This document shows positions 19,213-45,701 of a stretch of DNA of 64,000 nucleotides, one piece after another; the stretch's first letter is position 1, and every line of letters starts with the position of its first letter. The notes beneath the pieces are model-generated. The model had not been told where the DNA came from. It made no database searches and was given only the letters and a program-made list of their open reading frames with translations. The translations under genes and the position numbers were made by a program. The DNA lies in NCBI GenBank assembly GCA_000165345.1, contig CM000435.1, forward strand, positions 64,001-128,000, given 5' to 3'.

Positions 19213-20337
19213 TTAGATTTTTAATTTCTCAAAATCAATTTTGGGAGCGACTAATTTTGTAATAGAAGCTCTTTTACCTGTGAGAGCATTTCCAAGAGGG
19301 ACTACAACCTCTGCATCCTCAATGAAGTCATTTTTATCAGGGACTAGATTATTTTTCGATATATCAGTGTCCAATAGATTGGAGTTTGGATCATCGGAGT
19401 TGGAAATACCAGAATTAACAATAATTTTGGCGGGATTTTTGTCGAGAGTATTATTATTGGCTTGTTTTCTTCTCTCTTTAATAATTTTGGTGACTTTTTT
19501 ATGGACTTCAATCTCGCGAATACAAACCATCATAGCATCCATGAACTGTGTAGGGAGGTTTTCTATAATTGTAGTTTGCCCCGATTTGTTTCTCCTTGTG
19601 AATATAATTTTAGATCTACCATAGTCCCAATACCCATCCCTAAGGTCTTTTGCAAATATTATTCCTTTCTTTTCTGATTTTTCACCTCTACTAACTTTAA
19701 GGTCACTCTTTGTGTAGTAGGATAGAAATGCAATGGGGTCAGTTCCATCCATGATGAAAAATCTTACTTTATTTGGAGAAATATGTGAATCCCAATTTCC
19801 TACTAGTTTTACAGCAACACAACCTCTTTTTCCTATATCCCAAGCTGTGTGGTAGCCCATTATAATATCTTCTGGTATATACTCTCCTTTGGGAATCCAT
19901 GCTGTGCTTCTAATTTCATTCATCTCTTCTGGACTTAATGCGGCAATTTCTTCTCCTCTTTGAATTTGCTCAATTTCGTCATGCAAAAAATCGGGATTGT
20001 CATCTTCATTTGCTTTATGTCTCATCCTCCTATTTCTTATTCTCTGTCTAAATCTAACATCACCTAAATTAGAATTATCCGTACTACCTTTATTTTGGAA
20101 TATTTTAAGTTTATCTTGAATAATGCTATCAAACTTATTTGAATTTGAGGTTAGAATTGCATTAGGATCTAACTTCATATCATCATCTTCGTCAACAGAA
20201 AAGTCATCATCATCTCCGTAAAAGTCATTCCAATCATAATCTCCACTATAATATCCTTGTACATTTGCTAAAATTTTATTAACAGAGGCAGATTCTGAAG
20301 CATGGGCTGAATTACTATTATCCAAAGTATTCTGCAT
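19213..20337 (-). CDS. Hypothetical protein, acidic N-terminus plus conserved-looking C-terminal globular domain (function unassigned)
   Basis: The tracked ORF 19213..20343 begins at a TTG. The first ATG is at 20335-20337 (MQNTLDNS...). Acidic DDDDFSVDEDDD stretch, then a domain AWIPKGEYIPEDIIMGYHTAWDIGKRGCVAVKLVGNWD...VRFFIMDGTDPIAFL...GYWDYGRSKIIF that I cannot assign confidently (PH/EVH1-like at best). Confidence 0.5.
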   Translation of the reverse strand: MQNTLDNSNSAHASESASVNKILANVQGYYSGDYDWNDFYGDDDDFSVDEDDDMKLDPNAILTSNSNKFDSIIQDKLKIFQNKGSTDNSNLGDVRFRQRIRNRRMRHKANEDDNPDFLHDEIEQIQRGEEIAALSPEEMNEIRSTAWIPKGEYIPEDIIMGYHTAWDIGKRGCVAVKLVGNWDSHISPNKVRFFIMDGTDPIAFLSYYTKSDLKVSRGEKSEKKGIIFAKDLRDGYWDYGRSKIIFTRRNKSGQTTIIENLPTQFMDAMMVCIREIEVHKKVTKIIKERRKQANNNTLDKNPAKIIVNSGISNSDDPNSNLLDTDISKNNLVPDKNDFIEDAEVVVPLGNALTGKRASITKLVAPKIDFEKLKI

Positions 20338-20540
20338 CTTCAAAATATATTCAAATCTCTAAAATCTATAGAGACTTTAATTCTCTTTAAATTCCACTCC
20401 TATATCTTATTTTCTTCAGTTATTTCATTTAGATTCATTATTTTTAATTAGATTGCTTGTAATAGAAATTCCAAAAAATGTGTGCCAGCCCGCCAAAACC
20501 AAACCATTATAAATACAACATAAATAGTATAAACTGCATT

Positions 20541-21039
20541 ATGACAGATTGGGAATCACTTTTACTAGAGAGAGTCAAAAAAAGGGATCAGCCAAGTATC
20601 TCTGACCTTCTAGAGCTTTACGGATCGTGTAAGTAATTTTTTCTTTTAATTTTTAAGCCTTTTAATAACTTACTTCCTTCTTGATTTGGCGTAAATTACA
20701 CTTTTTATTCTCATTTTTTTTTCTCCTCAAATAGATACTGATCTAAGGAAAAGGTTCATCTCAGCTCAACCCTGCAACTCATCAACTCCTCAAAATAGGA
20801 AAACAACTCACACTAAAAATTCTAGTACAAGCACTGAACAAGTCCGTTTCCTACAAGCAAAACTTTCACAACTACAGCAAGAGCTCACCAATTCATATAA
20901 GAATAAACTCAACTTTGATGATTCTATTGGCAAACTCCGTGAGAAAATTGATAAGTTAGAAAGTGAAATTTCAGAAAAAGACAAAACAATTAGCAAACTT
21001 GAGAGAACAATTTCCCACTTGCAGTCTAATAAACTGTAG
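20541..21039 (+). CDS. Small coiled-coil protein, two exons (exon 1 20541..20628, intron 20629..20734, exon 2 20735..21039). Not in ORF track
   Basis: ATG at 20541 gives MTDWESLLLERVKKRDQPSISDLLELYGS. GTAAGT donor at 20629 and poly-T tract plus AATAG acceptor ending at 20734. Phase-1 junction restores frame (T+AT = Tyr). Exon 2 encodes a heptad-rich coiled coil ...VRFLQAKLSQLQQELTNSYKNKLNFDDSIGKLREKIDKLESEISEKDKTISKLERTISHLQSNKL with stop at 21037-21039. The spliced product is about 130 aa. Confidence 0.45.
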
Positions 21040-21590
21040 ATTAGTTATATATTAATTACAAACACACAGAAACGCATGAACAAGACTTCAATCTTTCCTT
21101 TATTTCAGTCTTAAAACGATTATTACAATACTTTTTAACTTTTGCCCCTCAACCGCTCTCCACCCAAGAATAATGCCCGCCTAAACATTAATTATTACTA
21201 ATTCAAATATATATATTAGTGGTAACTAATAAATTTAAGAGGGGTTGGATAACAAATTAATGGCCCACATAATTAATAATAATTAGTGATAAGTATTAAA
21301 GAAGAGAGGTACCATATTATTGTTGACACACGTCTAATAGCGGTTATTTTTTAATATAAGATATTTTGCTATATACTAATTCAAAGCACTGTTTAAGGAT
21401 ATAATCAAAGATACTATTTAGAGCTATAGACTGAATAATCATAAATTATTCTAATTATATATATTATTAAATATAGATTTTATTTAAGTTATATTAATTA
21501 AGCGTTTTAACCCCTCTTAAATTTTCCCCCAAAGAAAAATTACCCAACATTAATATTTCGAACATTTCAGTTTTCTTAAAGTTGGAAAGA

Positions 21591-23558
21591 ATGAAGTATT
21601 TGAAAGCTATCATCTTCTCAGTTTTTCTGAGTTTATTTTTAGCCTTCCCAGTTAGATCTAGTGATGAAAAGAAGTACGACGGACCAGTTATTGGTATCGA
21701 TTTAGGTACTACTTATTCATGTGTTGGTATCTACAAGAATGGTAGAGTAGAGATTATTCCAAATGAACAAGGTAATCGTATTACACCATCATATGTATCA
21801 TTCACTGATGATGAGAGATTGATTGGTGAATCAGCCAAGAATCAAGCTACTATCAATCCAGTTCAGACTTTGTTCGATGTAAAGAGACTTATTGGTCGTC
21901 GCTTTAAGGATGATTCCGTCCAAAAGGATAAGACTTTGCTACCATATGAGATTATTAACAAAGATAGCAAGCCTTACATACAAGTTTCTGTTAAGGGTGA
22001 GAAGAAGCAATTAGCCCCAGAAGAGGTTTCAGCTATGGTCTTGGTCAAGATGAAGGAAATTGCTGAGGCTTATCTCGGTAAGGAAGTAAAGCATGCAGTT
22101 ATTACTGTCCCAGCTTACTTTAATGATGCTCAGCGTCAGGCTACCAAGGATGCTGGTGCTATTGCCGGTTTGAATGTAATTCGTATTATTAATGAGCCAA
22201 CAGCAGCAGCAATTGCTTTTGGTTTGGACAAGAAGGCTGAGAAGAGCATTTTAGTATACGATTTGGGTGGTGGTACTTTTGATGTTTCTCTCTTGACCAT
22301 TGATAACGGTGTTTTCGAGGTCGTTGCTACAAGTGGTGATACCCATTTGGGAGGTGAGGATTTCGATCAGAGAGTTATGGACCACTTTATCAAGATCATC
22401 AAGTCAAAGACAGGAAAGGATGTAAAGTCTGACAAGAGAGCCCTTCAGAAGCTTAGGAGAGAGGTCGAGAAGTCAAAGAGAGCTCTTTCTTCAGCTCCAC
22501 AAGTTAAGGTCGAGATTGAAGGTTTGATGGAGGATGTAGATTTGAGCGAAACCTTGACCAGAGCTAAATTCGATGAGTTGAATGCTGACTTGTTCAGAAA
22601 GACTATCGAGCCAGTTAAGAAGGTTTTGGAGGATGCTGGAATCAAAAAGTCTGAAGTAGATGAGATCGTTTTGGTTGGTGGTTCTACTCGTATCCCTAAG
22701 ATTCAAGCCTTGATCAAGGAGTTCTTTGATGGAAAGGAGCCAAACAGAGGAATTAACCCAGATGAAGCCGTCGCTTATGGTGCTGCCGTACAAGCTGGTA
22801 TCTTAGCAGGTGAAGGCGGTAGTGATTTATTATTATTGGATGTTACTCCTTTAACTTTAGGTATTGAGACTGTTGGTGGAGTTATGACAAAGCTCATTGG
22901 TAGAAACACTGTTGTTCCAACCAAGAAGAGCCAAGTTTTCAGTACTTACCAAGATAATCAGCCAGCTGTACTTATCCAGGTTTATGAGGGTGAGCGTCCA
23001 ATGACTAAGGATAACAATCTCCTTGGAAAATTCGAGCTTTCTGGAATCCCACCAGCTCCAAGAGGTGTTCCCCAAATTGAGGTTACTTTTGAAATTGATA
23101 CTGATGGTATTTTACAAGTTAGTGCAAAGGATAAGGGTACTGGTAAATCTGAGAAGATTACTATCACAAATGATAAGGGTAGACTCTCACAGGAAGACAT
23201 AGAGCGTATGATTAAGGAGGCTGAGCAATTTGCCGAAGAAGACAAGCTTGTTCGTGAAAAGGTCGATGCCAAGAACGCACTCGATAGTTATGTCCACTCA
23301 ATGAGAATGAGCATTGAAGATAAGGACAAACTCGCTCAGAAACTCGAGGAGGAAGATAAGGAGAAGATCAAGGAAGCACTCAAGGATGCAGAGGACTTCC
23401 TCAGCAGCAATCCAGATGCTGATGCTCAAGAGATCAAGGATAAGCTCAAGGAAGTTGAGGGTATTTGCAACCCCATTATTGCTGCTGTCTACGGTCAAGC
23501 TGGAGGCGCTGCTGGTCATGCAGGCGGCGACGACTACTCTGGCCATGATGAACTCTAA
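21591..23558 (+). CDS. BiP: ER-luminal Hsp70 chaperone BiP/GRP78
   Basis: The tracked ORF starts at a TTG (21582). The ATG at 21591 gives [23 protein letters not shown], a signal peptide. Hsp70 signatures [38 protein letters not shown]-terminal ER retention signal HDEL (...YSGHDEL*). Confidence 0.95.
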
Positions 23559-29817: not shown

Positions 29818-30315
29818 GAAACTACGTAAAGTACCTTGCTAAAAGATTTAGTTATATTTAATTGTTTGAATTAGAGCGGCTCCTCCTTTTATTTATTTAA
29901 TATTGTTTATATATTACAATTAATTCGGAATCCCATTAAATGAGAGTATTGCGACTATTAGGGGGGGAAAATAGGATAAGAGCTGATTATTAATCATACA
30001 TTTCATGACAAAATAGAATAACTTCTCGTAATTATTCGATAGTATGTTGTATTTTAGCAAATTCAGAAATATTTATTATTTTTTTTAGCTCAATTTGGAT
30101 TATAGAAAAAAAAGACAACCCGCCAAAATTTGGAAAATTAATATTGCATGCAGAATGTGAATAGCCAGAATAACAGAAATATTGGAAGTTATCATATTTT
30201 TAATATCCAGATTGTTTTTTAAATAAATTTCAGTAGGTATGACGGAATTAAAAATTAAAATCTGGTTCAAAATCTGAACAATTTTGAGTGTTAATAGTTA
30301 TATTATTTCATTAAA

Positions 30316-31709: not shown

Positions 31710-32499
31710 TGAATATTAGATTTACTCCACGCCTGAAGATATAATAATTCTGTTACTAATATCATCATCAAAAAGGATGAGAAGAATCTAAGATTTCCAT
31801 TTTTTTTTTCTAAAAATGTATGTGTTGTTGTATTTAAATGCGTTAAATACACCATTTTCATTTTTTTTTCTAAATAAAATAAAATAAAATTTATTATTTG
31901 GTGGAATGGCATTTCAATATTTTATTTATTTATCGCTTTCACTAAAATTCAAAATCTAGGATAATAAAGGGATTTGATGGTGGAATTACGTGTAATAATT
32001 ATTTCAATGAGTACTACATTTTTTCTTTCATAACTTAAAGTAAGTTGGAGTAATTTGGCACATCCAAAGTCTTAAATAAAGCTATGAAATACACCATCAA
32101 AATTACATATTTAATTTTTACTTTAATGATAAAAAAAAATAATAATAAATAATAGTGTGAAATTTCTCTCAAAACTAAAAGACTACCAATAATAATCCAA
32201 ATTTTAGTCATTAGTTTAAAAAAAAATCTTTCACCATTTCGCTAGTTTGATTTTATTGGGCTTGATTTTCATGCTTAATTTCTATTTAAATCATTATCAT
32301 ATTCGTTAATCATCTCTTGTTGTTTTATATTTAAATATATTCGAATTCAAAGTTTAATATAGATGGAACAGATTAATTGATTCTTCATTAAATTCTGCAT
32401 GCATTCTTACATGCAAAATGTAATTGAATTAATAGGTCAAGTTTTGGCGCCAAAACATTTTTTTATTCTTTTTTTCTTTAATAAAAAAAAAAAATAAAA

Positions 32500-33717
32500 T
32501 TATTTATTTAATAGTCTCATATACTCAAAAGAAATATCTGACATATTTCTAATGGGAACAAAAAGGTCAGAATTCAAAAAAGAGGTTTTCTTTTGAAATT
32601 TCTTTTCTTCTAAAAGTCTGACATTTTCTGGAATATTGAATTGAGTTGATTGAACAATTACATGGTTTAATGAATCAAAATATAATCTACAAGTTTTCTT
32701 TAGCTCATCTGATAATAATAAAGTTGAAATATGTGTATAACCAAAAGTTGTTGGTGAAAGTTTTTTTCCCCAATATCTATTGTAGAATCTTTTTAATAAA
32801 CTTAATAATATGCCATTTGGATACAAAATTAAAATTTCATTAAGTTCGTTTTTTAGGTCTATTAGTTTATTATGTAATGATTTTTTTTCTAATCTATTAA
32901 TTAATGCTGAGCAGTTTGAATCATCATTAGGAGTTTCATTACTTTCAATTTGATCAACATCCATTGATAGTGCAGCAGCAGCAATCTTTACACATGTGCA
33001 TCTCGGCTTTAAAACATTATTTTCATATTGTAGAATTCCTCCATTAATAGCAAGTTGAACTAGATGGGACAATTCCCCCAATGATAGATCTTCTAATTGA
33101 GAGATTTTTGCCTTATGTATTTCCATAGCTACTCCATATCTTCCGCCTTTAAATTGATATCTAAGTAAATCAGGCTCAATTTGAGAATTTGAATAATTTG
33201 AATTTAGAGGTATTAATAAAAAATCTGATTCACTTTCTTTTTGATTTATAATTAATTCATGACCTTTGGAATCTATTGAGTAATTATTTGAATTATTTAT
33301 TGTATTTGAACCATTAATATTACTTTCTCCTTTAACACAGACTAAGTTATTAATATATTGTAAAAATCCACTCCATATTTCATGGGAATAAGGATTATTC
33401 GGATTTTTTGGATCAATCCAATGGTTATCTGGAACATTTAAATTTCTAAAATAAATCTCTCCATTACTAAATAATAGGAACTCTTCTTCATTTTCTGTTA
33501 AATCTTTTACTAACATTTGCAAGTTATAATTTGCACCTAAATCTACACGTTCTTTTAATCTTCTAATAAGTTCTTGAAGATGTGGTCTAGTTCTATCTAT
33601 ATAAAGTGATTTAAGTGCATCCTTAATTAAATCCAATCTTCTTTCTTTCCAGAATTCCGGTCCAGGTCTCATTACTACCGTCCCTGTTCCTGTTCCTGTT
33701 CTTGTACCTATACCCAT
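32500..33717 (-). CDS. Hypothetical protein; possible OST-HTH/LOTUS-like RNA-binding domain near C-terminus
   Basis: 405 aa with ATG at 33715-33717. Starts MGIGTRTGTGTGT. The C-terminal segment LKRFYNRYWGKKLSPTTFGYTHISTLLLSDELKK resembles the OST-HTH pattern (..yGkkl.p..fGy.kl.dll). Assignment is weak. Confidence 0.45.
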   Translation of the reverse strand: MGIGTRTGTGTGTVVMRPGPEFWKERRLDLIKDALKSLYIDRTRPHLQELIRRLKERVDLGANYNLQMLVKDLTENEEEFLLFSNGEIYFRNLNVPDNHWIDPKNPNNPYSHEIWSGFLQYINNLVCVKGESNINGSNTINNSNNYSIDSKGHELIINQKESESDFLLIPLNSNYSNSQIEPDLLRYQFKGGRYGVAMEIHKAKISQLEDLSLGELSHLVQLAINGGILQYENNVLKPRCTCVKIAAAALSMDVDQIESNETPNDDSNCSALINRLEKKSLHNKLIDLKNELNEILILYPNGILLSLLKRFYNRYWGKKLSPTTFGYTHISTLLLSDELKKTCRLYFDSLNHVIVQSTQFNIPENVRLLEEKKFQKKTSFLNSDLFVPIRNMSDISFEYMRLLNK

Positions 33718-34520
33718 TATTTCTCAAGTTTGGTAATACTGTTATCTTTTTTTTTTTTTTTGTTTTAAATTTTCAATGATTTATTAATTTCTTCTTGAAT
33801 TAGGGATTAATCGGGAATTATTTACTTCTTTATCAAATGAAATACTTATGTAAAAACTAAATTCTGAATTAATGGAAATATTAAACTAGATTTATTATAT
33901 TCAACTTTATTTTCAATATATTTATTTTAATAATATCATCCATTTTCTCTATTAAAATTTTAAATTTATCTTATTCATTGTAAATTATATTATCCAAAAG
34001 AAAAGAAAATAACGACAAAGCATTAATAACTTCATCACCTAGCTAACTGAGATATTTGCATAATCACTCTTCTCACTAATCAAGTTTTTTTTTTTGTATT
34101 ATAAAACAATAACCCAATGCAATAATTACAATATTACTATCACTTTAATTGTTATATCTTAGGCATAAATATATAAAGATATTATTTTATAATAAATTGA
34201 CTGGACCAATGATTCAATTCAACTTTAATTAAATTATAGGTGAATTCAAATATCTAATAATCATTAACCCAGTTTCTTACTTCTGATTTTTTTTTTCATC
34301 AAATTAAATTTGGTTTAATATATCTTAAATATTATATTCTATAGTTATATTCACTAATGATAATGTTATTGAATTAATTTCAATTCTTTTGAATAAATAA
34401 ATAAATAAATATATATATATATTATATTTATTTATTCATTCATATATATGTTAAGTGTGTCAAATGATATATCAATATTTTCATTATATTATCAACATCA
34501 CTTTTGTTCTATTATTATTA

Positions 34521-34606
<86 letters not shown>

Positions 34607-35422
34607 ATATATATATAATATTATTTATATAATTTTTCCTTATTGCAGTTTTTTTTGTATATTAAATTTTCTTTTTTCTTATTAATGTACTATTATAAAT
34701 ATTTAATTATATTGGTGAATATTATTACCAACCAGTTATTATTAATATTATTATTTTATTTTCAATCTAATTTGTCCAAAAGCAATTATATAATTATTAA
34801 AATCTTAATTATTCCTTTCCAAATAACGATAATTTTACCCCTATAAATATCAAAACAAAAAAATTTTCTTTATTTCTTTAAATCTAAAATAAAATAATAA
34901 TTTTCAGAAAAATTAATTTTTTTTTCTATTTAATATTTTTGTTAGACATATTATATTATGCCTAAGTTACACACACGCATAGTAAATATTAAGTACAGGA
35001 AACCACTAGTTATTATTTTGGAAATTTCCATTTTTGTTTGTAATTTTTTGGTGGAACATTTTTTTAAAAAAATTATTTCATCAATTATAATAATATAGGA
35101 TTTTTTTTTACTACTTTATAATAGAGAAAGATAGGAAGTAAAGAAAAAAAAAAAAAAAGAATTACATGATTTATTTATTAAAAATAAAAGACCGCCCTCC
35201 ACAATAGTAATTAATATATAAATTAAAATTTGAAAATATATATTTGCATGAATTGCGCGCCTCTATTAGAAAAAGCGTTCTAGCGCCAAATTATTGGAAA
35301 AGTAAATAATTACTGTTAATTGTACACGTAATAGTAGTAATTATTATTATTACTGTCACTATTATCATTATCACTATCATTATCATTCTTTTACTTTTTA
35401 AAAACTATATTAGCTAAATCAA

Positions 35423-38400
35423 CTAGTTTGGTTGTTTTTCTTCGATTGTGTGTTCTCTTTGTTTGAAATTAGTGTCAGATACATGTTGAATAATTTTTAA
35501 GTTTAAAGAATATTGGTTATTAGAATTAAATGAAGGATTATGCGGATTTTGATTATTATAAAAATTGAATAAATATTGGAAAATAAGTTCATCAATAGAA
35601 TTATGTATAATAAAGTTCCAAATATGTGGGGTTTTAGTTTGACCCATACGAATAATTCTACCAATAGCTTGTAATTCATCAGATTTATTTAAAAGAGGAC
35701 TAACAAAAATGATATGATTTGCTGCAGTAATATTAACTCCTTTTCCAACATTTAAATGATTACATAAAAGTACTCTGTAATTTATATCTATTGAATTTTC
35801 TGAAGATGAGAATTCTCTGATAATATGATATTCAGATTTACCACCACAATATTTTTTAAAAAGTATTTCATTTAAATGCATAGCAGATGAAAGAATATCA
35901 ATAACAGGTTGAAAATCAGAAAAGATGATAATTTTATCATTATTATTATTTAATATCCATTTAATATGTTTAATAATAGCTTCTATTTTAGTTCCAAAAT
36001 TTCCAAGTATTTCTATTGATTGTATTGTATTAAAATAATCAATACCAAAATCTACTTGATTTGGTTTATTTAATGATTCATTAATTAAAGATGTTGAAGA
36101 ATTAATATTATTTTCTAGATTATTTTCTTTTATTATATTATGATTATCATTATCAGGTACTATTAAAACAACATTTGTATCTTGAAAATTCAATCTACAT
36201 TTAGGGCATTGATTCTTAAGTTTATGATTAGATGATGATTTTTTACTAATTAATTTATAACAATCAATACAAATGATATGAGCACAAGGTAAAAGAACTT
36301 GTGAATAATCATCTTTTAATTTATTTAAACATATTGGACAAATATCATGATCTTGATTTTCTTCTTTCTCTTTTTCATGATCTTTTTCTTGTAAAATTTC
36401 ATTTTTCCAATCTTTTTTAGATCTTTGTTGTAATTTAAGATGACAAAGAAATTTTTGTTGTGATTTTAGATTTCTTCTTACACCAAGAGCAGATATACGT
36501 TCAGATTCATATTTTTCTATTAAAAATGGAATTTCACTTATATGTATAATATTATTATGATTTGAAGATGAATTTGATTGATTATTTTGAATTATTTGAA
36601 TTCTTTGTTTACAATCAATAAGTTCTAAATAAGAATTAATTAATTGTCTAGTAGCTGATACAAATGCTTTAATATTATAAAGTTCAATCTTTAAAGATTC
36701 AATATACTTGATATGTTTTGTTGAAATCTTTGAAATAGAAGAAAAATCATCCATTTCATTCAATTCTTGTTCTTGTTCTTGTTCTTGTTCTTGTTCTTGT
36801 TCAAATTCTAATTCTTTTTCTTCATCTTTTGAGTTAGATCCTGATTTAAAGAATTTTTTTCTTAATTCTTTGTTTAAAAACTTTAAGATTGCAATAGTTT
36901 CTGAATCTCTTAAATATGTAGAATCATGATGAATTATTTTGTTTTGTTGATTATTATCAATTTCTATACTATGGTTATTATTACTACTTTCACTAAGCCT
37001 TGTAAAAGTTTTCTTTTTTATAGTATATAGTGAATATTCTAATTCTTCAATATGGGTTTGTATAATACAAAATATACAAGATTCTTGTTTTTGAATAAGT
37101 TTATTATTCTTTTTTCCTATATTTTTCTGTTGATTATCTTCTATTTGACTATTTTGTCCTTGTTGACAGAAAAAGCAAGATGTGACTTTTGCAATGATTT
37201 CATCAAGAATTAGTTGGGATTTTATATTTTGGTTTTGGTTTTGGTTTTGGTTCTGGTTCTGGCTCAAATCCAAGTTTTGGTTCTGGTTCACATCCAAGTT
37301 CTGGTTCACATCCAAGTTTTGACTTTGGTTCACATCCAAGTTCTGGTTTTGGTTTTGGTTCTGGTTCACATCCAAGTTCCGGTTTTGGTTCACATCCAAA
37401 TTCTGGTTCACATCCAAATTCTGGTTCACATCCAAATTCTGGCTCACATCCAAATTCTGGCTCACATCCAAATTCTGGCTCACATCCAAATTCTGGCTCA
37501 CATCCAAATTCTGGCTCATACTTTGGCTTGAACACGTATTTTGATCTTGGATATTATTAAACCTCAATAGTTCTAGTTGTTTTAGCTGGTGTAAAAGTTT
37601 TGTTCGAGATTCTTGCATTTGCTTAACTTTGAGATCTAAAGTAATAATGAGACCATGAATACTATTAAAACTTGGTAAATTATGTTCAATGTTACCATCT
37701 TTTGCACTCTTAAATTCATATTGAAAATTCTCAATCCTATCTAATAAAAGATCCTCTTCACTGATTCCTCCTTTAGTAGACATATTAAACTTTTTTTTAA
37801 ATATATACCACCAATGATCATCAGAATATAATGAATTTGCTTTATCTTTAGATTTAATAAACAAATCATGTTTTTCTATATATTCTTTAAAATATTTACT
37901 TCTATATTTATTTTCAAGATCATTACATTCTTTCATTAGTTCTTTTTTCTCCAATTCATCATTGCATATTTCTCCAAGATTCCATAATGTATGTATTTGT
38001 TGCAAAACATCGACTCTATCTTCCTTACGAATATCAAGTACTTGCTTATAATAGAAAACTGACTTGTTCATTTGCATATTATTATTATTATTATTATTAT
38101 TATTATCATCATCATCATCATATTTGGACTTTTTTGTAAAATGAATACCTGCTAAACCTAAAGTATTCATGACATATTTTCTTACACTTTCTTCAATATC
38201 AATTCTACATTTATTTAATAATTTATCTAAAATCTGATCCATAGTCATAATCTTTAATCCTGTATTTAAAGAAACAATACCCGTATCATTATGATTATCT
38301 AAATTATAATATTTACTATCATCATCTTTATTTTTATTATGGATACCCATAATACCTAATTGTGGATGTATACAAGCAAGTCTTAACATTGTAATCAATG

Positions 38401-41400
38401 AATCCATTTCTTTCTTATTTCTTAAAAAACTTTCTTGACTTTTATAATTAATTATACTATTATAACCTGATTCACATTGTTTTATATAAAAGAATCTTTC
38501 TACTGAAGATAAACTTAAATAAGTATTTCCATAAAATGCTGGTGGTATACATATTTCCTCTTTTACTTGTTTCATTTCTCTCCTGTAAAATAATGAACCT
38601 ACAACATACTCTAAATGTTGTATTAAATTCATCATTGAAATATACTCATTAGTTATATAATCCAAACCACTTTCACATACAAACCATCTTTCTTCCTTTA
38701 GTAACTTTTCCTCAGTTAAGAGCTCTTTTTCATTCTCATTCATATGATTGGGGTCCTTGGGTTGATTTTGGGGTCGACTTTGGGAGTAATCTTGATCCTC
38801 AGCTCGATCTTGGGATTGGTCCTCAGCTTGTTCTTGGGATTGATCCTCGACTTGATCCTCGACTTGATCCTCAGCTCGAACCTCGGCTTGATCCTCAGAT
38901 CCACCTTGAAATTCTGTATTACCTTTGTTAGACTTAATATACAATATACTAGACAAGTATCCAATATACTTTTTATATAAAGTGTCATTAATTAAATCAA
39001 ATCCAACATTTGAAAGATTTAATAATAAACCAATCAAATCATTTGAACAAGATCTAACAATTGGAGTACCAGAAACACACCATTTATTATAACATATTAA
39101 TTTACTTGTCATTTTTGAAACAAGAGAATAACCTTCAGTCATTTGAGCTTCATCTAAAACTATTCTCCACCAATCAATATTAGTAATTAAAGATGCTAAA
39201 ATAGGATAACTTTTTTTAAATCTCATTGATCTTTTGTTTGTAATAGTATTTTGATCTAATACATGATATATTTCTTCTTTTAAAATTTCATATGATGTTA
39301 AAACTACATCATAATTTAAAATATCTCTTCTAGTTAATATTATTCCATTATTATTAGTCATTGAATCTAAATTAATATCTTTATTATTTAATTTATTTAA
39401 TGCTCTATTTTTCAAATAATTTTGTATATATCTTACTCCTTGATATTTAACAACTTTAAGTCTTCCTTTTTCTAAATGTTTATTAAATTCATCATACCAT
39501 TGATCTACAATACTTCCAGGAGCTATAATTAAAGTAGCTTTTACTATTAATCTCTCATTTAATTCAATACTTTGACATAATGAACAAAGTAAATTAATAT
39601 TATCTAAATGATTAAAATTCATTATATTATCACTTATACAACATTCAAAGTGAAATTTAACTTGACATTTTTTACATTCTACTATATTATAATCTTTAAA
39701 AGGCTTAAAAACTCCACATGGACATTCAATTTCTATATTGTTATTATTATTGTTATCTTTGTACTTAAAAATAGGAAGAGAAGAATTTTTTTTAAAACAT
39801 TCTTCTTTATTATTCAAATTCAAATAATAATAATATTCTTTTCTTGGATTCATTAAAATTAAAGTAATAATCTCCAAACTTTTACCTAATCCCATTTCAT
39901 CACATAGAAATCCTCCTCTTATAGTAAAATGACCACCTCCTGATGGTAAAATATTGAAAGAAAGTTCACCTGTTATCATATTAAAATAAAGTAAATCTTG
40001 TTCATTTTCTTCTTTTTTTGGTATTTTTAAACAATACCAATATGGTGGATATTCAATATTTAATTTTACTGTTTCTTTTTCAACATTTAAAGCAAACAAA
40101 ACTGCATCTTTTTGGTAATTTCTTAACTCAGAAACTAAACCTAAATGATTATTCCAATCGTGATTTTGTTTTATTGTAGAAGAAGAAGATCCCATTCTTT
40201 TCATGGATATATTATATTCTTGAAATATTGAATATAACTCATTTGGCTTAATTTGTATTGTTTGAAAGGAATTTTTTTTATTTTTGATTTGATTATAAGT
40301 ATAATTTTCAATAGATGGAAGCTTAAGTTCTTCATTAAGCCATGAGAATAAGATTTTGAAGCTATTTTTACCATCTTTTTTTCTAGATAACAATTTTCCA
40401 TCTAAAGAAGTTCTATTTAAATACATTTTAATATTCATATTTAATACGATTCCTTTAGATCTCGAGCAATTACTAGAGGTTGTGGTGATGGAATTTGCAG
40501 TATTGGAGTTTGAAGTGTTGGAGTTCGCAGTATTGGAATTTGCAGTGTTGGAGTTTGAAGTGTTGGAGTTCGCAGTATTGGAGTTTGAAGTGTTGGAGTT
40601 CGCAGTATTGGAATTTGCAGTGTTGGAGTTCGCAGTATTGAAATTTGCAGTGTTGGAGTTCGCAGTATTGGAGTTTGCAGTGTTGGAATTTGTAGTATTG
40701 AAATTTGCAGTGTTGGAGTTCGCAGTATTGAAATTTGCAGTATTGGAGTTCGCAGTATTGAAATTTGCAGTATTGGAGTTTGCAGTCCCAAAGTTTGCAG
40801 TGATGGAATTTGAAGTGTTGGAGTTCGCAGTATTGGAATTTGAAATATTGGAGTTTGAAGTGCTGGAGTTCGCAGTATTGGAATTTGTAGTCCCAGAGTT
40901 TGAAGTATCAGAGTTTACAATGCTAAAGTTTCTTATATTATAACTATAACTTTTCTTTACACCCAATATTTCACAAGTAAAAGTTATAAATCCTGCATCT
41001 TGTAATAATATTAGTGCCTTTCTAACATTAAAATATGGTATTTTTGGTTTTAAATTTAACCAACTTATTGTTCCTCGTCCTAAAATACCTTCTTTTATAT
41101 TTAATTCATCATATTCTATATTTTCTTTCTCAAATTTATCATTCAATATCACAAATTCACATTTAGATTTATTTTCTTCTAATAATCCAATATGTACAAT
41201 AAACTCTTTATTTTGATCATTTAAAGAATTCATAATTTCTATAAAATCAATATTTTCATTTTCTTGAATAATTGTTATTTTAATATTTTCCCATATATTT
41301 AAACAACAAATTAAATCATTTAATTTGGTTATTATCTGTCTTTTATTATATTTTATTCCTAATTCTTCTTTTTTATTCAATTTTTTTGGCTTTTTTAAAT

Positions 41401-41551
41401 CTAAATCCAAATCTAAATCATTATCTAAATCCAATTTTAAATCCAAATTATTCTCTTCTTTCTTTAAATTATCTTCTTCTAAAATAAAATATTCTTTATC
41501 TTGATATAAAACTCCTCCATATCTCAATGGTTTTGCTTTAAATCTAACCAT
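35423..41551 (-). CDS. SNF2-family DNA-dependent ATPase with PHD and C3HC4 RING fingers (SHPRH/Rad5/Rad16-like), greatly expanded by low-complexity repeat insertions
   Basis: The tracked ORF begins at a TTG (41557). The ATG at 41549-41551 gives MVRFKAKPL. SNF2 N-lobe LCDEMGLGKSLE, APGSIVDQW, DEAQ box (WWRIVLDEAQMTE). PHD-like CPCGVF...CKKCQVKFHFECC...CSLCQ. RING CPICLNKL...LPCAHIICIDCYKL...CPKCR. Helicase-C block LLCNHLNVGKGVNITAANHIIFVSPLLNKSDELQAIGRIIRMGQTK. Repeat arrays (NSNTA)n, (NLDVSQ)n, (EDQ[AV])n and (EQ)n are all in frame. Confidence 0.85.
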   Translation of the reverse strand: MVRFKAKPLRYGGVLYQDKEYFILEEDNLKKEENNLDLKLDLDNDLDLDLDLKKPKKLNKKEELGIKYNKRQIITKLNDLICCLNIWENIKITIIQENENIDFIEIMNSLNDQNKEFIVHIGLLEENKSKCEFVILNDKFEKENIEYDELNIKEGILGRGTISWLNLKPKIPYFNVRKALILLQDAGFITFTCEILGVKKSYSYNIRNFSIVNSDTSNSGTTNSNTANSSTSNSNISNSNTANSNTSNSITANFGTANSNTANFNTANSNTANFNTANSNTANFNTTNSNTANSNTANSNTANFNTANSNTANSNTANSNTSNSNTANSNTSNSNTANSNTANSNTSNSNTANSITTTSSNCSRSKGIVLNMNIKMYLNRTSLDGKLLSRKKDGKNSFKILFSWLNEELKLPSIENYTYNQIKNKKNSFQTIQIKPNELYSIFQEYNISMKRMGSSSSTIKQNHDWNNHLGLVSELRNYQKDAVLFALNVEKETVKLNIEYPPYWYCLKIPKKEENEQDLLYFNMITGELSFNILPSGGGHFTIRGGFLCDEMGLGKSLEIITLILMNPRKEYYYYLNLNNKEECFKKNSSLPIFKYKDNNNNNNIEIECPCGVFKPFKDYNIVECKKCQVKFHFECCISDNIMNFNHLDNINLLCSLCQSIELNERLIVKATLIIAPGSIVDQWYDEFNKHLEKGRLKVVKYQGVRYIQNYLKNRALNKLNNKDINLDSMTNNNGIILTRRDILNYDVVLTSYEILKEEIYHVLDQNTITNKRSMRFKKSYPILASLITNIDWWRIVLDEAQMTEGYSLVSKMTSKLICYNKWCVSGTPIVRSCSNDLIGLLLNLSNVGFDLINDTLYKKYIGYLSSILYIKSNKGNTEFQGGSEDQAEVRAEDQVEDQVEDQSQEQAEDQSQDRAEDQDYSQSRPQNQPKDPNHMNENEKELLTEEKLLKEERWFVCESGLDYITNEYISMMNLIQHLEYVVGSLFYRREMKQVKEEICIPPAFYGNTYLSLSSVERFFYIKQCESGYNSIINYKSQESFLRNKKEMDSLITMLRLACIHPQLGIMGIHNKNKDDDSKYYNLDNHNDTGIVSLNTGLKIMTMDQILDKLLNKCRIDIEESVRKYVMNTLGLAGIHFTKKSKYDDDDDNNNNNNNNNMQMNKSVFYYKQVLDIRKEDRVDVLQQIHTLWNLGEICNDELEKKELMKECNDLENKYRSKYFKEYIEKHDLFIKSKDKANSLYSDDHWWYIFKKKFNMSTKGGISEEDLLLDRIENFQYEFKSAKDGNIEHNLPSFNSIHGLIITLDLKVKQMQESRTKLLHQLKQLELLRFNNIQDQNTCSSQSMSQNLDVSQNLDVSQNLDVSQNLDVSQNLDVNQNLDVNQNLDVNQNRNLDVNQNQNQNQNLDVNQSQNLDVNQNLDVNQNQNLDLSQNQNQNQNQNQNIKSQLILDEIIAKVTSCFFCQQGQNSQIEDNQQKNIGKKNNKLIQKQESCIFCIIQTHIEELEYSLYTIKKKTFTRLSESSNNNHSIEIDNNQQNKIIHHDSTYLRDSETIAILKFLNKELRKKFFKSGSNSKDEEKELEFEQEQEQEQEQEQELNEMDDFSSISKISTKHIKYIESLKIELYNIKAFVSATRQLINSYLELIDCKQRIQIIQNNQSNSSSNHNNIIHISEIPFLIEKYESERISALGVRRNLKSQQKFLCHLKLQQRSKKDWKNEILQEKDHEKEKEENQDHDICPICLNKLKDDYSQVLLPCAHIICIDCYKLISKKSSSNHKLKNQCPKCRLNFQDTNVVLIVPDNDNHNIIKENNLENNINSSTSLINESLNKPNQVDFGIDYFNTIQSIEILGNFGTKIEAIIKHIKWILNNNNDKIIIFSDFQPVIDILSSAMHLNEILFKKYCGGKSEYHIIREFSSSENSIDINYRVLLCNHLNVGKGVNITAANHIIFVSPLLNKSDELQAIGRIIRMGQTKTPHIWNFIIHNSIDELIFQYLFNFYNNQNPHNPSFNSNNQYSLNLKIIQHVSDTNFKQREHTIEEKQPN
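37210..37535. repeat. Imperfect 18-nt tandem repeat (GTTCACATCCAAGTTCTG-type) encoding the (NLDV[SN]Q)n/(NQ)n array inside the SNF2 gene
   Basis: Periodicity is visible directly (ttctggttcacatccaagtt... repeated more than 15 times). It stays in frame in the minus-strand CDS. Confidence 0.8.
38760..38900. repeat. 12-nt tandem repeat (GATCCTCGACTT-type) encoding (EDQ[AV]E)n inside the SNF2 gene
   Basis: cttgatcctcgacttgatcctcgacttgatcctcagctcg... Periodicity is visible and in frame. Confidence 0.75.
40455..40920. repeat. 15-nt tandem repeat (TGCAGTATTGGAGTT-type, about 30 copies) encoding the pentapeptide (NSNTA/NFNTA)n array inside the SNF2 gene
   Basis: agtattggagtttgaagtgttggagttcgcagtattggaatttgcagtgttggagtt... 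about 465 nt of 15-nt units with third-position variation. No stop codons in the CDS frame. Confidence 0.85.
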
Positions 41552-42360
41552 CTTCAAAAAAGTGATAAGAAGAAGAAAAAAAAAAAAAAGAAGAAATAAA
41601 AGAAAAAGAATAAGTGGAGGAAGAGGAATATGAATAAGAAGAAGATGAAGAAGATGAAGAAGAAGAAGAAATATAAATCTCTAACTCACATTAATTAAAA
41701 ATATAAAATGATAATTTTCCATTCAAATCCCTAAAAACTCTTTTTCACTTTTAATATGTATCCAAAAATATTAGATTTATATCTATTTTAAATACTAGTA
41801 ATCTGGATATCAAATATTATATATATTTTCACCATTAAATAAAATATATTTAAATATTCATTAATATATCATTAATATACCAAACTTTTATTTAATATCT
41901 AAAAAATAATTTTTTACTTTTTTTTTTTTTTTTATAATATAATTTTTTTTTTATATAATACATTACCGGTATACAAGAAATAAATTTATGATTAATTGTG
42001 CAGCAGATTACCGCCAAACACGTGTTATATTGATTATCTCATTTTAAAAACAAATAATATAAATAATGAAAAAAACGAATAAAAGGATTAAATGAGTAAA
42101 GTGAATACAATATTTATAGAAAACAATAATATTTTAAATAATTGTATTTGAATGAAAAATTGTTAAACTCTTGTTTGGATTTCAGTTACTTTAAATTATT
42201 AAGGTGGAAAAAAAACAAAGAAAAAAAGTTAAGTTAAAAAAAAAAAAAAATAATCTATTAAAACAATTTTAAAGATCCAAGATAAAATAAAATTATTAAT
42301 TAATAATACAATATTTAATTTATTTGATTTCTAATTTCTTATTTCAATAAAAAAAAAATT

Positions 42361-43323
42361 ATGTTTTCTATTTCAGAAAGATATGAACAAATTAATGCAC
42401 ATATTGGACAAGGTACTTATGGTAAAGTAGAAAAAGCAATAGACAAAAATAGTGATACTATAGTAGCTATAAAAAAAGTGAAAATATGTGAATTACCTTC
42501 AGATTTAACAGAATCTAGACAAAAAGTTGGACAATGTGGTATTCATTTCACAGTTTTAAGAGAAATTAAAATAATGAATGAAATTAATCATCCAAATATT
42601 ATGGGTTTAAGAGATGTTTTTGTTCAAGGAGATTTTATTAATTTAGTTATGGATTATATGGAAAGTGATTTAAGAAAAGTTTTTGAAAATAGAATTCGAT
42701 TTTCTGAATCACATATTAAATGTCTTTTAAAACAAATAATTCTTGGAATTAATGAATTACATAATTGGTTTATTATACACAGAGATTTAGCTCCTGCTAA
42801 TATCTTTATTAATTCAAAAGGTATAGCAAAAGTTGGTGATTTTGGATTAGCTAGAAGTTATGGACAACCACGTAGAGAATATACTCCTGAAGTTGTTACA
42901 TTATGGTATAGATGCCCAGAATTACTTTTTGGATCCACAAAATATACTCATGCTGTTGATATGTGGAGTATAGGTTGTATTTTTGCAGAACTCTTAACAG
43001 GTGGAAAAGCTTTATTACCTGGTGATGATGAAGTTAGACAACTTGGACGTATTTTTGAACTTTTAGGTACCCCAAATGAAGATAATTGGCCACAAGCTAA
43101 AGAATTACCTTTATATTGTGAATTTAGTCCAAGATCTCCATTAAATTTTAAAGATATCTTTCCCAATGCATCAGAAATGGCAATTGATCTTATTCAATCA
43201 TTTTTGAGACTTAATCCATTAGAAAGAATTTCAGCAAGTCAAGCTTTAGAACATGAATATTTTAAAAGTTATCCACTTCCATGTGATCCTTCCGAATTAC
43301 CACTTAATTACTTTAAAAACTAA
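42361..43323 (+). CDS. CDK7/MRK-like cyclin-dependent protein kinase
   Basis: 320 aa with ATG at 42361. YEQINAHIGQGTYGKVEKAIDKNSDTIVAIKKVKI; PSTAIRE-region variant FTVLREIKIMNEI; HRDLAPANIF; DFGLARSYG; T-loop REYTPEVVTLWYRCPE, the CDK activation-loop Thr context. Confidence 0.8.
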   Translation: MFSISERYEQINAHIGQGTYGKVEKAIDKNSDTIVAIKKVKICELPSDLTESRQKVGQCGIHFTVLREIKIMNEINHPNIMGLRDVFVQGDFINLVMDYMESDLRKVFENRIRFSESHIKCLLKQIILGINELHNWFIIHRDLAPANIFINSKGIAKVGDFGLARSYGQPRREYTPEVVTLWYRCPELLFGSTKYTHAVDMWSIGCIFAELLTGGKALLPGDDEVRQLGRIFELLGTPNEDNWPQAKELPLYCEFSPRSPLNFKDIFPNASEMAIDLIQSFLRLNPLERISASQALEHEYFKSYPLPCDPSELPLNYFKN

Positions 43324-43394
43324 CAAAAAGTTAATACAAAAGACTTTTATTAAATTAGAATTAATAATTAACTATAATAAAATATACTAAATTT

Positions 43395-44852: not shown

Positions 44853-45186
44853 TTTTGTATTTTATGTAAGTCTTCTCCTATAATTTCTTTTTCTTAATAA
44901 TCAACAAAGACAAAAACACTTATATTTATTTATAAAATATATTTTTAACCTTGATTATTATTTTTTTTTGACACGTAATTTTAGATTTATTTGATTGAAA
45001 AGATGAAGAATTTTTCTTTCCACAATTTCAACTCTTCAGTTATCTTTTACAAACTAAATTGGTTGCAATCAATCAGTGATTTAGTAATAATTTCTTAAAT
45101 TTACCACTTAACATAAACCTTCTTGCTATTTTTCTTTTTTTGAAATTTCTTCTTAACTATTATCGGTACCATAATGCATCACGTGG

Positions 45187-45210
45187 ATGGCGGCAGAATT
45201 CTGCCGCCAT
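45187..45210. promoter_or_regulatory. Perfect 24-bp palindrome ATGGCGGCAGAATTCTGCCGCCAT (paired GGCGGCA/E2F-like half-sites) in the divergent RIO2/CDP-DAG-synthase promoter
   Basis: The sequence equals its own reverse complement. Related imperfect copy ATGGCGGCACAATTCTAGCGCCAC at 19182-19205, upstream of GRASP. Confidence 0.6.
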
Positions 45211-45332
45211 TTTTTAATGAAAATGGTTGAAAGTTGAGAAATTATAAAACAAATAAATGAATAAAAAATTTTTTTTTTCAAAAAAAGTAAGTAATTAATT
45301 CATATTTTTCTTTTTTGTTTTAGTATAAAGAA

Positions 45333-45365
<33 letters not shown>

Positions 45366-45701
45366 TATAAATATTATTTATATATATTTATATATATATA
45401 TATATTTATAACATTTATGTTTACATATACATAAATATCTCATTTACATCTGATTAAATTGGAATACAGAGCTAAAAAAACGCAAAAAAGATAAACTTGA
45501 ATTACAACTTATGGTCTTATAGAATTGGAAAATTACTATAATCACTTTAAGAATATAAGAGTACTTTTCTATAAGTACTAAAGCTTTTCAAATTTTTATT
45601 ATTTTTGGTATTTGATTATCAGTAAATTAAGATAAACTATTGATATTTAACCCAACCCCCTTATCCTTTTTTTTTAAATTATTAAAAATAAAGTTTTTGG
45701 A

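What the first reader, a model, noticed from the sequence alone, without database searches (positions are those of the whole stretch)
20541..21039. Small two-exon coiled-coil protein gene in an apparent gap between two minus-strand genes
ATG at 20541, GTAAGT at 20629, polypyrimidine tract plus AG at 20734 and a frame-restoring phase-1 junction give a heptad-rich protein of about 130 aa. The track shows only a 62-aa antisense ORF here. The N-terminal motif DWESLLLERVKKRD loosely resembles the Atg5-binding helix of ATG16 (W..HI...L.RRD), but that is weak evidence. Function is unknown.
Basis: inference. Interest (0 to 1): 0.5.

Follow-up and report, generated by a model that had tools for sequence, protein, structure and literature searches.

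The report
Cryptosporidium's small two-exon ATG16 gene
The proposed two-exon gene is real: it encodes the 130-residue autophagy protein ATG16 of Cryptosporidium parvum, and public databases already hold this exact protein, one GenBank record naming it ATG16, so the finding is correct but not new.

Summary
The window is Cryptosporidium parvum chromosome 7. Splicing gives a 130-aa protein identical to four GenBank entries, one of them named 'Autophagy-related protein 16'.

The intron is strongly supported by comparison. In seven Cryptosporidium species the exons are exactly 88 + 305 nt with no indels. The intron varies from 83 to 144 nt in all three length classes modulo 3, and T|GTAAGT is invariant. 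dN/dS is 0.16-0.19.

- Pfam PF08614 scores 44.1 bits against a cut-off of 33.7.
- The family profile matches a canonical WD40-bearing ATG16L protein (hhalign probability 96.4%).
- Three methods put W4, L8, V12 and R15 opposite the human ATG5-binding residues W13, I17, L21 and R24.

The protein has two N-terminal helices, a disordered linker and a ten-heptad coiled coil. It has no WD40 domain and no WIPI2/FIP200-binding region, so it resembles yeast Atg16 in layout.

It most likely dimerises and scaffolds ATG12-ATG5 for ATG8 lipidation. That function is inferred, not shown. I found no experimental study of it and could not check for a Cryptosporidium ATG5. One detail is wrong: the right-hand neighbour (BiP) is on the plus strand.

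The parts
20541..20628 (+). Exon 1 (88 nt, codons 1-29 plus the first base of codon 30). It encodes MTDWESLLLERVKKRDQPSISDLLELYGS.
   Evidence: The length is conserved at 88 nt in seven species. The start is supported because the upstream in-frame ATG (20478) is cut off by stop codons in four species, and because a distant ATG16L homologue also begins MADW.
20629..20734 (+). Intron: 106 nt, phase 1, GTAAGT...polypyrimidine...TAG, 24% GC.
   Evidence: Its length varies from 83 to 144 nt across species, including lengths that are not multiples of 3. The donor is invariant and the intron is less conserved than either exon.
20735..21039 (+). Exon 2 (305 nt including the TAG stop at 21037-21039), covering codons 30-130.
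   Evidence: It is 305 nt and gap-free in seven species, and conservation drops after the stop codon.
20550..20588 (+). Residues 4-16 (WESLLLERVKKRD): helix 1, the counterpart of the ATG5-interacting motif of human ATG16L1 (W13, I17, L21, R24, D25).
   Evidence: The register agrees between Pfam, hhalign and MAFFT. W4 and R15 are invariant in Cryptosporidium. The human key residues come from PMC10638514 and PMC6769624. The structure model has a helix at 4-15. Binding itself is not shown.
20598..20763 (+). Residues 20-39 (ISDLLELYGSYTDLRKRFIS): helix 2, interrupted in the DNA by the intron. It is the counterpart of the membrane-binding amphipathic helix alpha2 of ATG16L1; L23, L26 and Y27 align with F32, I35 and I36.
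   Evidence: The role of human alpha2 is from PMC9750143 and PMC6769624. A membrane-binding role here is inferred.
20773..20820 (+). Residues 43-58: a disordered, fast-evolving linker.
   Evidence: pLDDT is below 50 over 43-58. pN/pS for codons 41-62 is roughly 0.5-0.9, against roughly 0.1-0.3 in the flanking segments (excluding the near-identical C. hominis pair). C. xiaoi has a 34-aa insertion here.
20821..21033 (+). Residues 59-129: one long helix of about ten unbroken heptads, taken to be the dimerising coiled coil. It includes the conserved block LQ(Q/E)ELTNSY(K/R)NK.
   Evidence: The model has a helix at 59-129, with pLDDT of 88-98 from residue 61 on. One heptad register places 15 of the 18 core hydrophobic residues at a/d positions. 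This segment alone scores 35.1 bits against Pfam ATG16. The QEELT block aligns with human HQEELTELHKK.
20478..20498 (.). Conserved non-coding block ATGTGTGCCAGCCCGCCAAAA in the 203-nt divergent intergenic region. It is probably a shared promoter element, not coding sequence.
   Evidence: It is conserved in seven species, although the surrounding frame contains stop codons in four of them. The core GCCCGCCAAAA occurs four times in the window at one mismatch or fewer, against 0.3 expected. The promoter role is inferred.

Best explanation
This is the ATG16 gene of Cryptosporidium parvum, the gene numbered 7g355 between the older annotation's neighbours. It is a real, spliced, two-exon gene under purifying selection.

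The 130-aa product has a yeast-like minimal layout:
- helix 1 (residues 4-15), which carries the ATG5-interacting motif;
- a conserved proline break (P18);
- helix 2 (20-39), which matches the membrane-inserting amphipathic helix alpha2 of ATG16L1;
- a disordered linker (43-58);
- a coiled coil of ten heptads (59-129).

The most likely mechanism is as follows. The coiled coil forms a parallel homodimer. Each N-terminal helix holds one ATG5, which is bound to ATG12. The resulting 2:2:2 complex acts as the E3-like factor that brings ATG3~ATG8 to a membrane and promotes ATG8-PE conjugation.

Shown here: the gene structure, its conservation and selection, family membership by profile, and conservation of the motif residues. 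Inferred only: dimerisation, ATG5 binding, E3 activity, and how the complex reaches membranes. The last point is open because the protein has no WD40 domain and ends before the region that binds WIPI2b, FIP200 or Rab33B in mammals.
For: Gene structure:
- The sequence features are as described.
- The product is identical to GenBank KAL5367342.1, QOY40348.1, WKS78714.1 and WRK33201.1. One of these is named 'Autophagy-related protein 16'.
- The annotated gene span matches 20541-21039.
- Eight-lineage synteny, fixed exon lengths, variable intron lengths and an invariant donor all support the intron.
- dN/dS is 0.16-0.19, with tight constraint on the N-terminus and coiled coil and a nearly neutral linker.

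Family membership:
- Pfam PF08614 gives 44.1 bits against a cut-off of 33.7, E = 3.6e-11, with residues 12-127 matching profile positions 6-137 of 200.
- That score equals the one obtained by the yeast Atg16 sequence I recalled, which is unverified.
- All eight orthologues hit PF08614.
- A profile search of 1.8 billion proteins returns P0034, which has ATG16 at 69 bits plus WD40 repeats.
- hhalign of the Cryptosporidium alignment against P0034 gives 96.4% probability and E = 1.4e-9 over residues 1-86.

Motif register:
- Pfam offsets, hhalign against PDB-verified human ATG16L1 and MAFFT all pair W4/W13, L8/I17, V12/L21, R15/R24, D16/D25 and Y30/Y39.
- These are the published ATG5-contact residues.

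Structure: the model and heptad analysis agree on the layout.
Against: - Most of the Pfam score (35 of 44 bits) comes from the coiled coil. The N-terminal 46 residues alone hit nothing.
- Several unrelated coiled-coil families hit at 20-29 bits.
- Sequence searches of the PDB, with the single protein and with a six-sequence profile, return only generic coiled coils and no ATG16 chain.
- hhalign against human ATG16L1 alone is weak: probability 1.6%, E = 0.032.
- The fold search was uninformative.
- Q28 of the human motif is serine here, and P18 breaks what is one continuous helix in human ATG16L1.
- I could not confirm that Cryptosporidium encodes ATG5 or ATG12. A 2011 survey listed Atg5 orthologues for Neospora, Plasmodium and Eimeria but not for C. 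parvum. The 2025 survey of the apicomplexan ATG12 system did not cover Cryptosporidium.
- No transcript evidence was available.
Confidence: 0.85

Rival explanations
1. It is a real gene, but it encodes a generic small coiled-coil protein unrelated to ATG16. On this view the Pfam hit comes from heptad composition and the N-terminal resemblance is coincidence.
For: - The coiled-coil fragment alone carries 35.1 of the 44.1 bits, and the N-terminal fragment alone hits nothing.
- Many other coiled-coil families hit at lower scores.
- Most of the 44 hits in the profile search are long multi-stretch coiled-coil proteins.
- No ATG16 chain turns up in the PDB sequence searches.
Against: - ATG16 is the only family above its curated cut-off, and it is the top hit in all eight orthologues.
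- The hhalign match to a WD40-bearing ATG16L protein runs over the N-terminal, non-coiled-coil part and the QEELT block (residues 1-86) at 96.4% probability.
- Three methods agree on a register that lines up the known ATG5-contact residues.
- W4 and R15 are invariant, and the N-terminus is under strong purifying selection.
Confidence: 0.08
2. It is a real ATG16-family gene, but the coding model is different. It would either start at the upstream in-frame ATG (20478, adding 21 residues) or keep the intron, as in several deposited orthologue models of 164-206 aa.
For: - ATG 20478 is in frame and open through to 20541 in C. parvum.
- Database models P0004, P0007 and P0010 read through the intron, and P0023 starts upstream.
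Against: - The upstream frame has stop codons in C. hominis, chipmunk genotype I, C. ubiquitum and SRR31860986. Conservation there is at the DNA level, not the codon level.
- In C. parvum the unspliced frame stops at codon 32.
- Read-through models exist only where the intron happens to be a multiple of 3 without stops (checked for P0004 and P0007, whose introns are 102 and 144 nt). Their inserted peptides are unconserved and rich in F, L and S.
- The distant homologue P0034 starts MADW.
Confidence: 0.03
3. It is not a gene: the ATG, GTAAGT, AG and an open frame in AT-rich intergenic DNA coincide by chance.
For: A 114-codon open stretch is reached by 25 of 2000 composition shuffles of the region, so openness alone is not overwhelming.
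Against: - It is conserved in position, exon length and frame in eight lineages.
- dN/dS is 0.16-0.19.
- It matches a Pfam family.

Confidence: 0.01

Closest known systems
Saccharomyces cerevisiae Atg16 (150 aa)
   Same: The overall plan and size are the same: an N-terminal Atg5-binding helix, a linker, a dimeric coiled coil and no WD40 domain. Both score 44.1 bits against Pfam PF08614 (the yeast sequence was recalled from memory and not verified).
   Different: - The two match different halves of the profile: yeast matches positions 123-200, Cryptosporidium matches 6-137. The coiled coils are therefore not obviously equivalent segments.
- The short form probably arose independently, because a distant homologue found with the Cryptosporidium profile carries WD40 repeats.
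- Yeast Atg16 is recruited through Atg21 (my own knowledge). No counterpart site could be assessed here.
Human ATG16L1 (607 aa), N-terminal region 1-150
   Same: - The ATG5-interacting motif aligns: W13, I17, L21, R24, D25 with W4, L8, V12, R15, D16.
- The hydrophobic face of helix alpha2 aligns: F32, I35, I36 with L23, L26, Y27, and Y39 with Y30.
- The block HQEELTELHKK aligns with LQQELTNSYKN.

   Different: - The Cryptosporidium protein stops at about profile position 137 of 200.
- It lacks the second half of the coiled coil, including the PtdIns3P-binding residues, the WIPI2b site (E226/E230), the FIP200 region and the Rab33B site.
- It lacks the whole WD40 propeller.
- Q28 is replaced by serine, and a conserved proline separates helices 1 and 2.
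- Direct pairwise similarity is below significance.
Toxoplasma gondii ATG16L (TGME49_200280), part of the ATG12-ATG5-ATG16L complex
   Same: It is the apicomplexan member of the same family. It is reported to act with a non-covalent ATG12-ATG5 complex to direct ATG8 to a membrane (PMC6138587 table; Fu et al. 2022 as cited).
   Different: - The Toxoplasma complex serves apicoplast inheritance. Cryptosporidium has no apicoplast, and its ATG8 keeps the canonical C-terminal tail.
- I could not obtain the Toxoplasma sequence or the paper, so no direct comparison was made.

Membership tests
ATG16 (Pfam PF08614) | The profile score reaches the curated gathering threshold. | tested here: met
   The score is 44.1 bits against 33.7, E = 3.6e-11, with residues 12-127 matching profile positions 6-137 of 200. 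All eight orthologues match at E <= 0.001. Caveat: 35.1 bits come from the coiled-coil part alone.
ATG16 (Pfam PF08614) | An N-terminal ATG5-interacting motif (human W13, I17, L21, R24, Q28; D25 also contributes). | tested here: met
   Aligned residues are W4, L8, V12, R15 and D16. Three are identical and two are conservative changes. Q28 aligns with S19, which is not conserved. The register agrees in Pfam, hhalign and MAFFT. W4 and R15 are invariant across Cryptosporidium. The motif definition is from PMC6769624 and PMC10638514. This is a sequence test only.
ATG16 (Pfam PF08614) | A coiled coil that dimerises the protein. | tested here: met
   The model has a single helix at 59-129, with pLDDT of 88-98 from residue 61 on. 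One unbroken heptad register holds 15 of the 18 core hydrophobic residues at a/d positions. The oligomeric state itself was not tested.
ATG16 (Pfam PF08614) | Physical binding to ATG5 and E3-like stimulation of ATG8-PE conjugation. | not testable with these tools
   No complex prediction or eukaryotic genome search was available. The presence of ATG5 and ATG12 in Cryptosporidium could not be established from the tools or the held papers.
ATG16 (Pfam PF08614) | Detectable similarity to experimentally solved ATG16 or ATG16L1 chains. | tested here: inconclusive
   phmmer and a six-sequence profile against the PDB return only generic coiled coils. hhalign against human ATG16L1 gives E = 0.032 and probability 1.6%, but in the correct register. 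The link is transitive, through P0034.
ATG16L type (metazoan, plant, Toxoplasma: ATG16 domain plus C-terminal WD40 propeller) | A C-terminal WD40 repeat domain. | tested here: not met
   The protein ends at residue 130, and the stop codon keeps its position in seven species. The 551 nt downstream, before BiP, hold no further coding exon that is conserved or listed. There is no WD40 hit.
ATG16L type (metazoan, plant, Toxoplasma: ATG16 domain plus C-terminal WD40 propeller) | The WIPI2b-binding (E226/E230) and FIP200-binding region at the end of the coiled coil. | tested here: not met
   The match ends at profile position 137 of 200, roughly human residue 150. The human sites lie at 226-246.

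The most novel reading that the evidence does not exclude
Cryptosporidium, the apicomplexan lineage without an apicoplast, would run its ATG8 lipidation with an unusually small ATG16 of 130 aa that arose by independent loss of the WD40 propeller and of the distal coiled coil. It has no known WIPI2b, Atg21, FIP200 or Rab33B docking site. Membrane targeting would then depend on helix 2, or on the invariant polar block N82-S93 (NSYKNKLNFDDS) inside the coiled coil acting as a new recruitment site. An even stranger version is not excluded by my data: ATG16 is kept under purifying selection although ATG5 has been lost.
Probability: 0.2. Interest if true: 0.4.

Novelty: already known. Interest (0 to 1): 0.2.

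Why it matters
For the scan, this is a validated call. A reader without tools recovered a real spliced gene and its family from raw sequence, in a spot where a plain ORF list shows only a short ATG stub and an antisense shadow ORF.

Biologically the gene is ordinary, and public databases already name it. It is still a useful pointer. Reviews single out Cryptosporidium as the apicomplexan in which canonical, non-apicoplast autophagy could be studied (PMC8161075). The papers I could search do not mention a parasite ATG16, and a 2025 survey of the apicomplexan ATG12 system left the genus out. A WD40-less ATG16 of only 130 residues would be a compact system for asking what the minimal E3 scaffold needs.

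Tried and rejected
- PDB sequence searches with the protein and with the six-species profile returned only generic coiled coils.
- A Foldseek search of the AlphaFold model against the PDB gave nothing usable, as expected for an all-helical rod.
- The N-terminal 46 residues alone against Pfam gave no hit because the fragment is too short.
- hhalign against human ATG16L1 alone was not significant, though the register was right.
- The literature searches (nine of the ten used) found no paper on a parasite-encoded Cryptosporidium ATG16 or ATG5. Hits for 'Cryptosporidium + ATG16' concern the host ATG16L1. The only hit for cgd7_355 was really cgd7_3550.
- Fu et al. 2022 on TgATG16L is not held, and the paper cap blocked reading the 2015 re-annotation paper.
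- I considered using a protein search to find a Cryptosporidium ATG5 with human ATG5 as query. I did not run it, because a divergent parasite homologue would rank far below thousands of closer ones.
- The upstream in-frame ATG at 20478 was considered as the start and rejected.
- The antisense 62-aa ORF was considered as a gene and rejected.

Full report
**Origin of the window.** The window is AT-rich eukaryotic DNA of about 30% GC. The spliced product of the finding is 100% identical over 130 residues to a Cryptosporidium parvum protein. The 499-bp gene region is base-for-base identical to C. parvum chromosome 7, GCA_035232765.1 CP141124.1, positions 125439-125937.

**The observation.** All the stated features are present.
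- ATG is at 20541.
- Exon 1 is 20541-20628, 88 nt, so it ends in phase 1.
- GTAAGT is at 20629.
- The 106-nt intron (24% GC) ends in a T/C-rich tract and TAG, with the AG at 20733-20734.
- Exon 2 is 20735-21039, with the stop codon TAG at 21037-21039.

The spliced CDS is 393 nt and gives MTDWESLLLERVKKRDQPSISDLLELYGSYTDLRKRF...HLQSNKL, 130 aa. Without splicing the frame ends at codon 32. The exon-2 frame is open for 114 codons and has no in-frame start, which is why a mechanical ORF list shows only a 52-aa stub and a 62-aa antisense ORF. Openness alone is only mildly unusual: 25 of 2000 shuffles reach it.

**One detail is wrong.** The right-hand neighbour is plus-strand BiP (HSP70 family, HDEL end, 21591-23558), not a minus-strand gene. 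The two genes to the left are on the minus strand: a 374-aa protein with no Pfam domain, and GRASP.

**Comparative evidence for the intron.** I fetched the orthologous loci of C. hominis, C. meleagridis, chipmunk genotype I, C. ubiquitum, C. canis, C. xiaoi and an unnamed Cryptosporidium from a Logan assembly. All have the same gene order: GRASP, the 374-aa gene, this gene, BiP.
- In seven lineages the exons are exactly 88 and 305 nt, with no gap in pairwise alignments to C. parvum apart from two gap columns in the C. canis exon-2 alignment.
- Across all eight lineages the intron is 106, 104, 100, 102, 107, 83, 144 and 107 nt, which covers every length class modulo 3.
- The donor T|GTAAGT is invariant, and the acceptor is AG|A(T/C)A.
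- The intron diverges faster than the exons.
- Substitutions concentrate at third codon positions, for example 15/13/35 and 28/21/48.
- Nei-Gojobori dN/dS is 0.19, 0.16 and 0.17 for C. meleagridis, chipmunk genotype I and C. ubiquitum.
- Constraint is strong on codons 1-40 and 63-130 and nearly absent on codons 41-62.
- The antisense ORF acquires stop codons in C. ubiquitum, so it is a shadow of the coding strand.

**The start codon.** The upstream in-frame ATG at 20478 is not the start. That frame carries stop codons in four species, although the DNA block itself is conserved.

**Deposited read-through models.** The orthologue models of 164, 178 and 206 aa simply read through the intron. For the 164- and 178-aa models the intron happens to be a multiple of three without stops. 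Their extra peptides are unconserved.

**What the protein is.** Several results point to ATG16.
- Pfam assigns it to ATG16 (PF08614) at 44.1 bits against a curated cut-off of 33.7, E = 3.6e-11, with residues 12-127 on profile positions 6-137 of 200.
- No other family reaches its cut-off, although several coiled-coil families score 20-29 bits.
- All eight orthologues hit ATG16.
- I split the protein to test whether this is only a coiled-coil artefact. The C-terminal 69 residues alone give 35.1 bits and the N-terminal 46 alone give nothing. The coiled coil therefore carries most of the score, and that is a real caveat.

Three things answer the caveat.
1. Human ATG16L1, whose recalled sequence I verified as identical to PDB chains 5npv_B, 4tq0_B and 4gdk_C, maps residues 16-206 onto profile positions 1-200. 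The Pfam register therefore pairs Cryptosporidium residue n with human residue n+9. hhalign (residues 2-35 against 11-44) and MAFFT find the same register.
2. In that register the published ATG5-contact residues line up. W13, I17, L21, R24 and D25 of ATG16L1 (PMC6769624 and PMC10638514) align with W4, L8, V12, R15 and D16. W4 and R15 are invariant in the genus. Only Q28 (S19 here) is not conserved. The hydrophobic residues of the membrane-inserting helix alpha2 (F32, I35, I36; PMC9750143) align with L23, L26 and Y27.
3. A profile of six Cryptosporidium sequences was searched against 1.8 billion representative proteins. Besides orthologues (including C. muris CMU_006540) and many generic coiled coils, it found a 595-aa metagenomic protein starting MADWKACIFERLRVRN. 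That protein has a full ATG16 domain (69.3 bits) followed by WD40 repeats. hhalign aligns the Cryptosporidium profile to its residues 1-91 at 96.4% probability, E = 1.4e-9. The aligned stretch includes the N-terminal motif and the block LQEELT(N/A)SY(K/R).

**Anatomy.** The AlphaFold model (mean pLDDT 79) has helices at 4-15, 20-39 and 59-129, and a disordered stretch at 43-58. A single heptad register over 59-129 puts 15 of the 18 core hydrophobic residues at a/d positions. The protein ends at residue 130. No WD40 domain exists and no room for one remains before BiP. The match to the ATG16 profile stops at position 137 of 200, well before the human WIPI2b (E226/E230), FIP200 and Rab33B sites. 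The layout is therefore like yeast Atg16, while the sequence aligns with the proximal part of ATG16L proteins.

**Mechanism.** By homology, the coiled coil dimerises and each helix 1 binds ATG5, which is associated with ATG12. In Toxoplasma and Plasmodium that association is non-covalent. The complex then acts as the E3-like factor for ATG8-PE conjugation, with helix 2 possibly contacting the membrane. Only the sequence-level steps are shown here. Strong purifying selection on the N-terminal motif argues that its binding partner exists, but I could not verify ATG5 or ATG12 in Cryptosporidium.
- A 2011 table lists Atg5 orthologues for Neospora, Plasmodium and Eimeria but not C. parvum.
- A 2017 table reports Atg16 as not found in Plasmodium or Theileria.
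- The 2025 survey of the apicomplexan ATG12 system covered PlasmoDB, ToxoDB and PiroplasmaDB only.

How a protein without the known docking regions would reach a membrane is open.

**Novelty.** The exact protein is in GenBank under four accessions, and one record is named 'Autophagy-related protein 16'. UniRef calls it 'Autophagy-related protein 16 domain-containing protein'. The C. meleagridis orthologue is named 'Autophagy protein 16 (ATG16) family protein'. The locus number 7g355 lies between the round numbers of the older annotation, which suggests a later addition. That is my inference; I could not read the re-annotation papers. I found no experimental work on it in the held literature. 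The finding is therefore correct and already known at the annotation level. Its interest is low, apart from the point that this is a very small WD40-less ATG16 in the one apicomplexan lineage proposed as a model for canonical autophagy.

Noticed in passing
window 20478-20498; also 21175-21185, 30118-30128, 19425-19435(-): A non-coding block, ATGTGTGCCAGCCCGCCAAAA, lies 43-63 nt upstream of the ATG16 start and is conserved in seven intestinal Cryptosporidium species. Its core GCCCGCCAAAA occurs four times in the window at one mismatch or fewer, against 0.3 expected. One copy lies upstream of BiP. From memory it resembles the E2F-type site (TTTGGCGGG) described as a common Cryptosporidium promoter motif. 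It may serve the divergent gene pair.
   Followed up: partly
L004 2501-2995 (chipmunk genotype I); L005 2501-3037 (Logan SRR31860986); proteins P0010, P0016, P0023, P0009: Several public models of this gene are wrong. The 164-, 178- and 206-aa versions read through the intron. For the 164- and 178-aa versions (the two checked) the intron is a multiple of 3 with no stop codon. Two short stubs run from exon 1 into the intron, and one C. canis model starts inside the intron.
   Followed up: yes
window 19213-20337 (-): The divergently transcribed neighbour encodes a 374-aa protein with an acidic N-terminal region and no Pfam domain. It is conserved in position and length (356-377 aa) in all eight Cryptosporidium loci.
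   Followed up: no
window about 32000-48000: GC content falls to 19-26%, against about 30-36% elsewhere in the window. The stretch holds a 2044-aa ORF (35423-41557, minus strand).
   Followed up: no
L003 2501-3102 (C. xiaoi); P0015 (C. muris CMU_006540): The disordered linker is the variable part of the family. C. xiaoi carries a 34-aa insertion there. The gastric species C. muris has a 137-aa version that scores below the Pfam ATG16 cut-off (21.7 bits) but keeps the W, R, Y and SYKNK landmarks.
   Followed up: partly
It stays open in most close relatives but has four stop codons in C. ubiquitum.
   Followed up: yes
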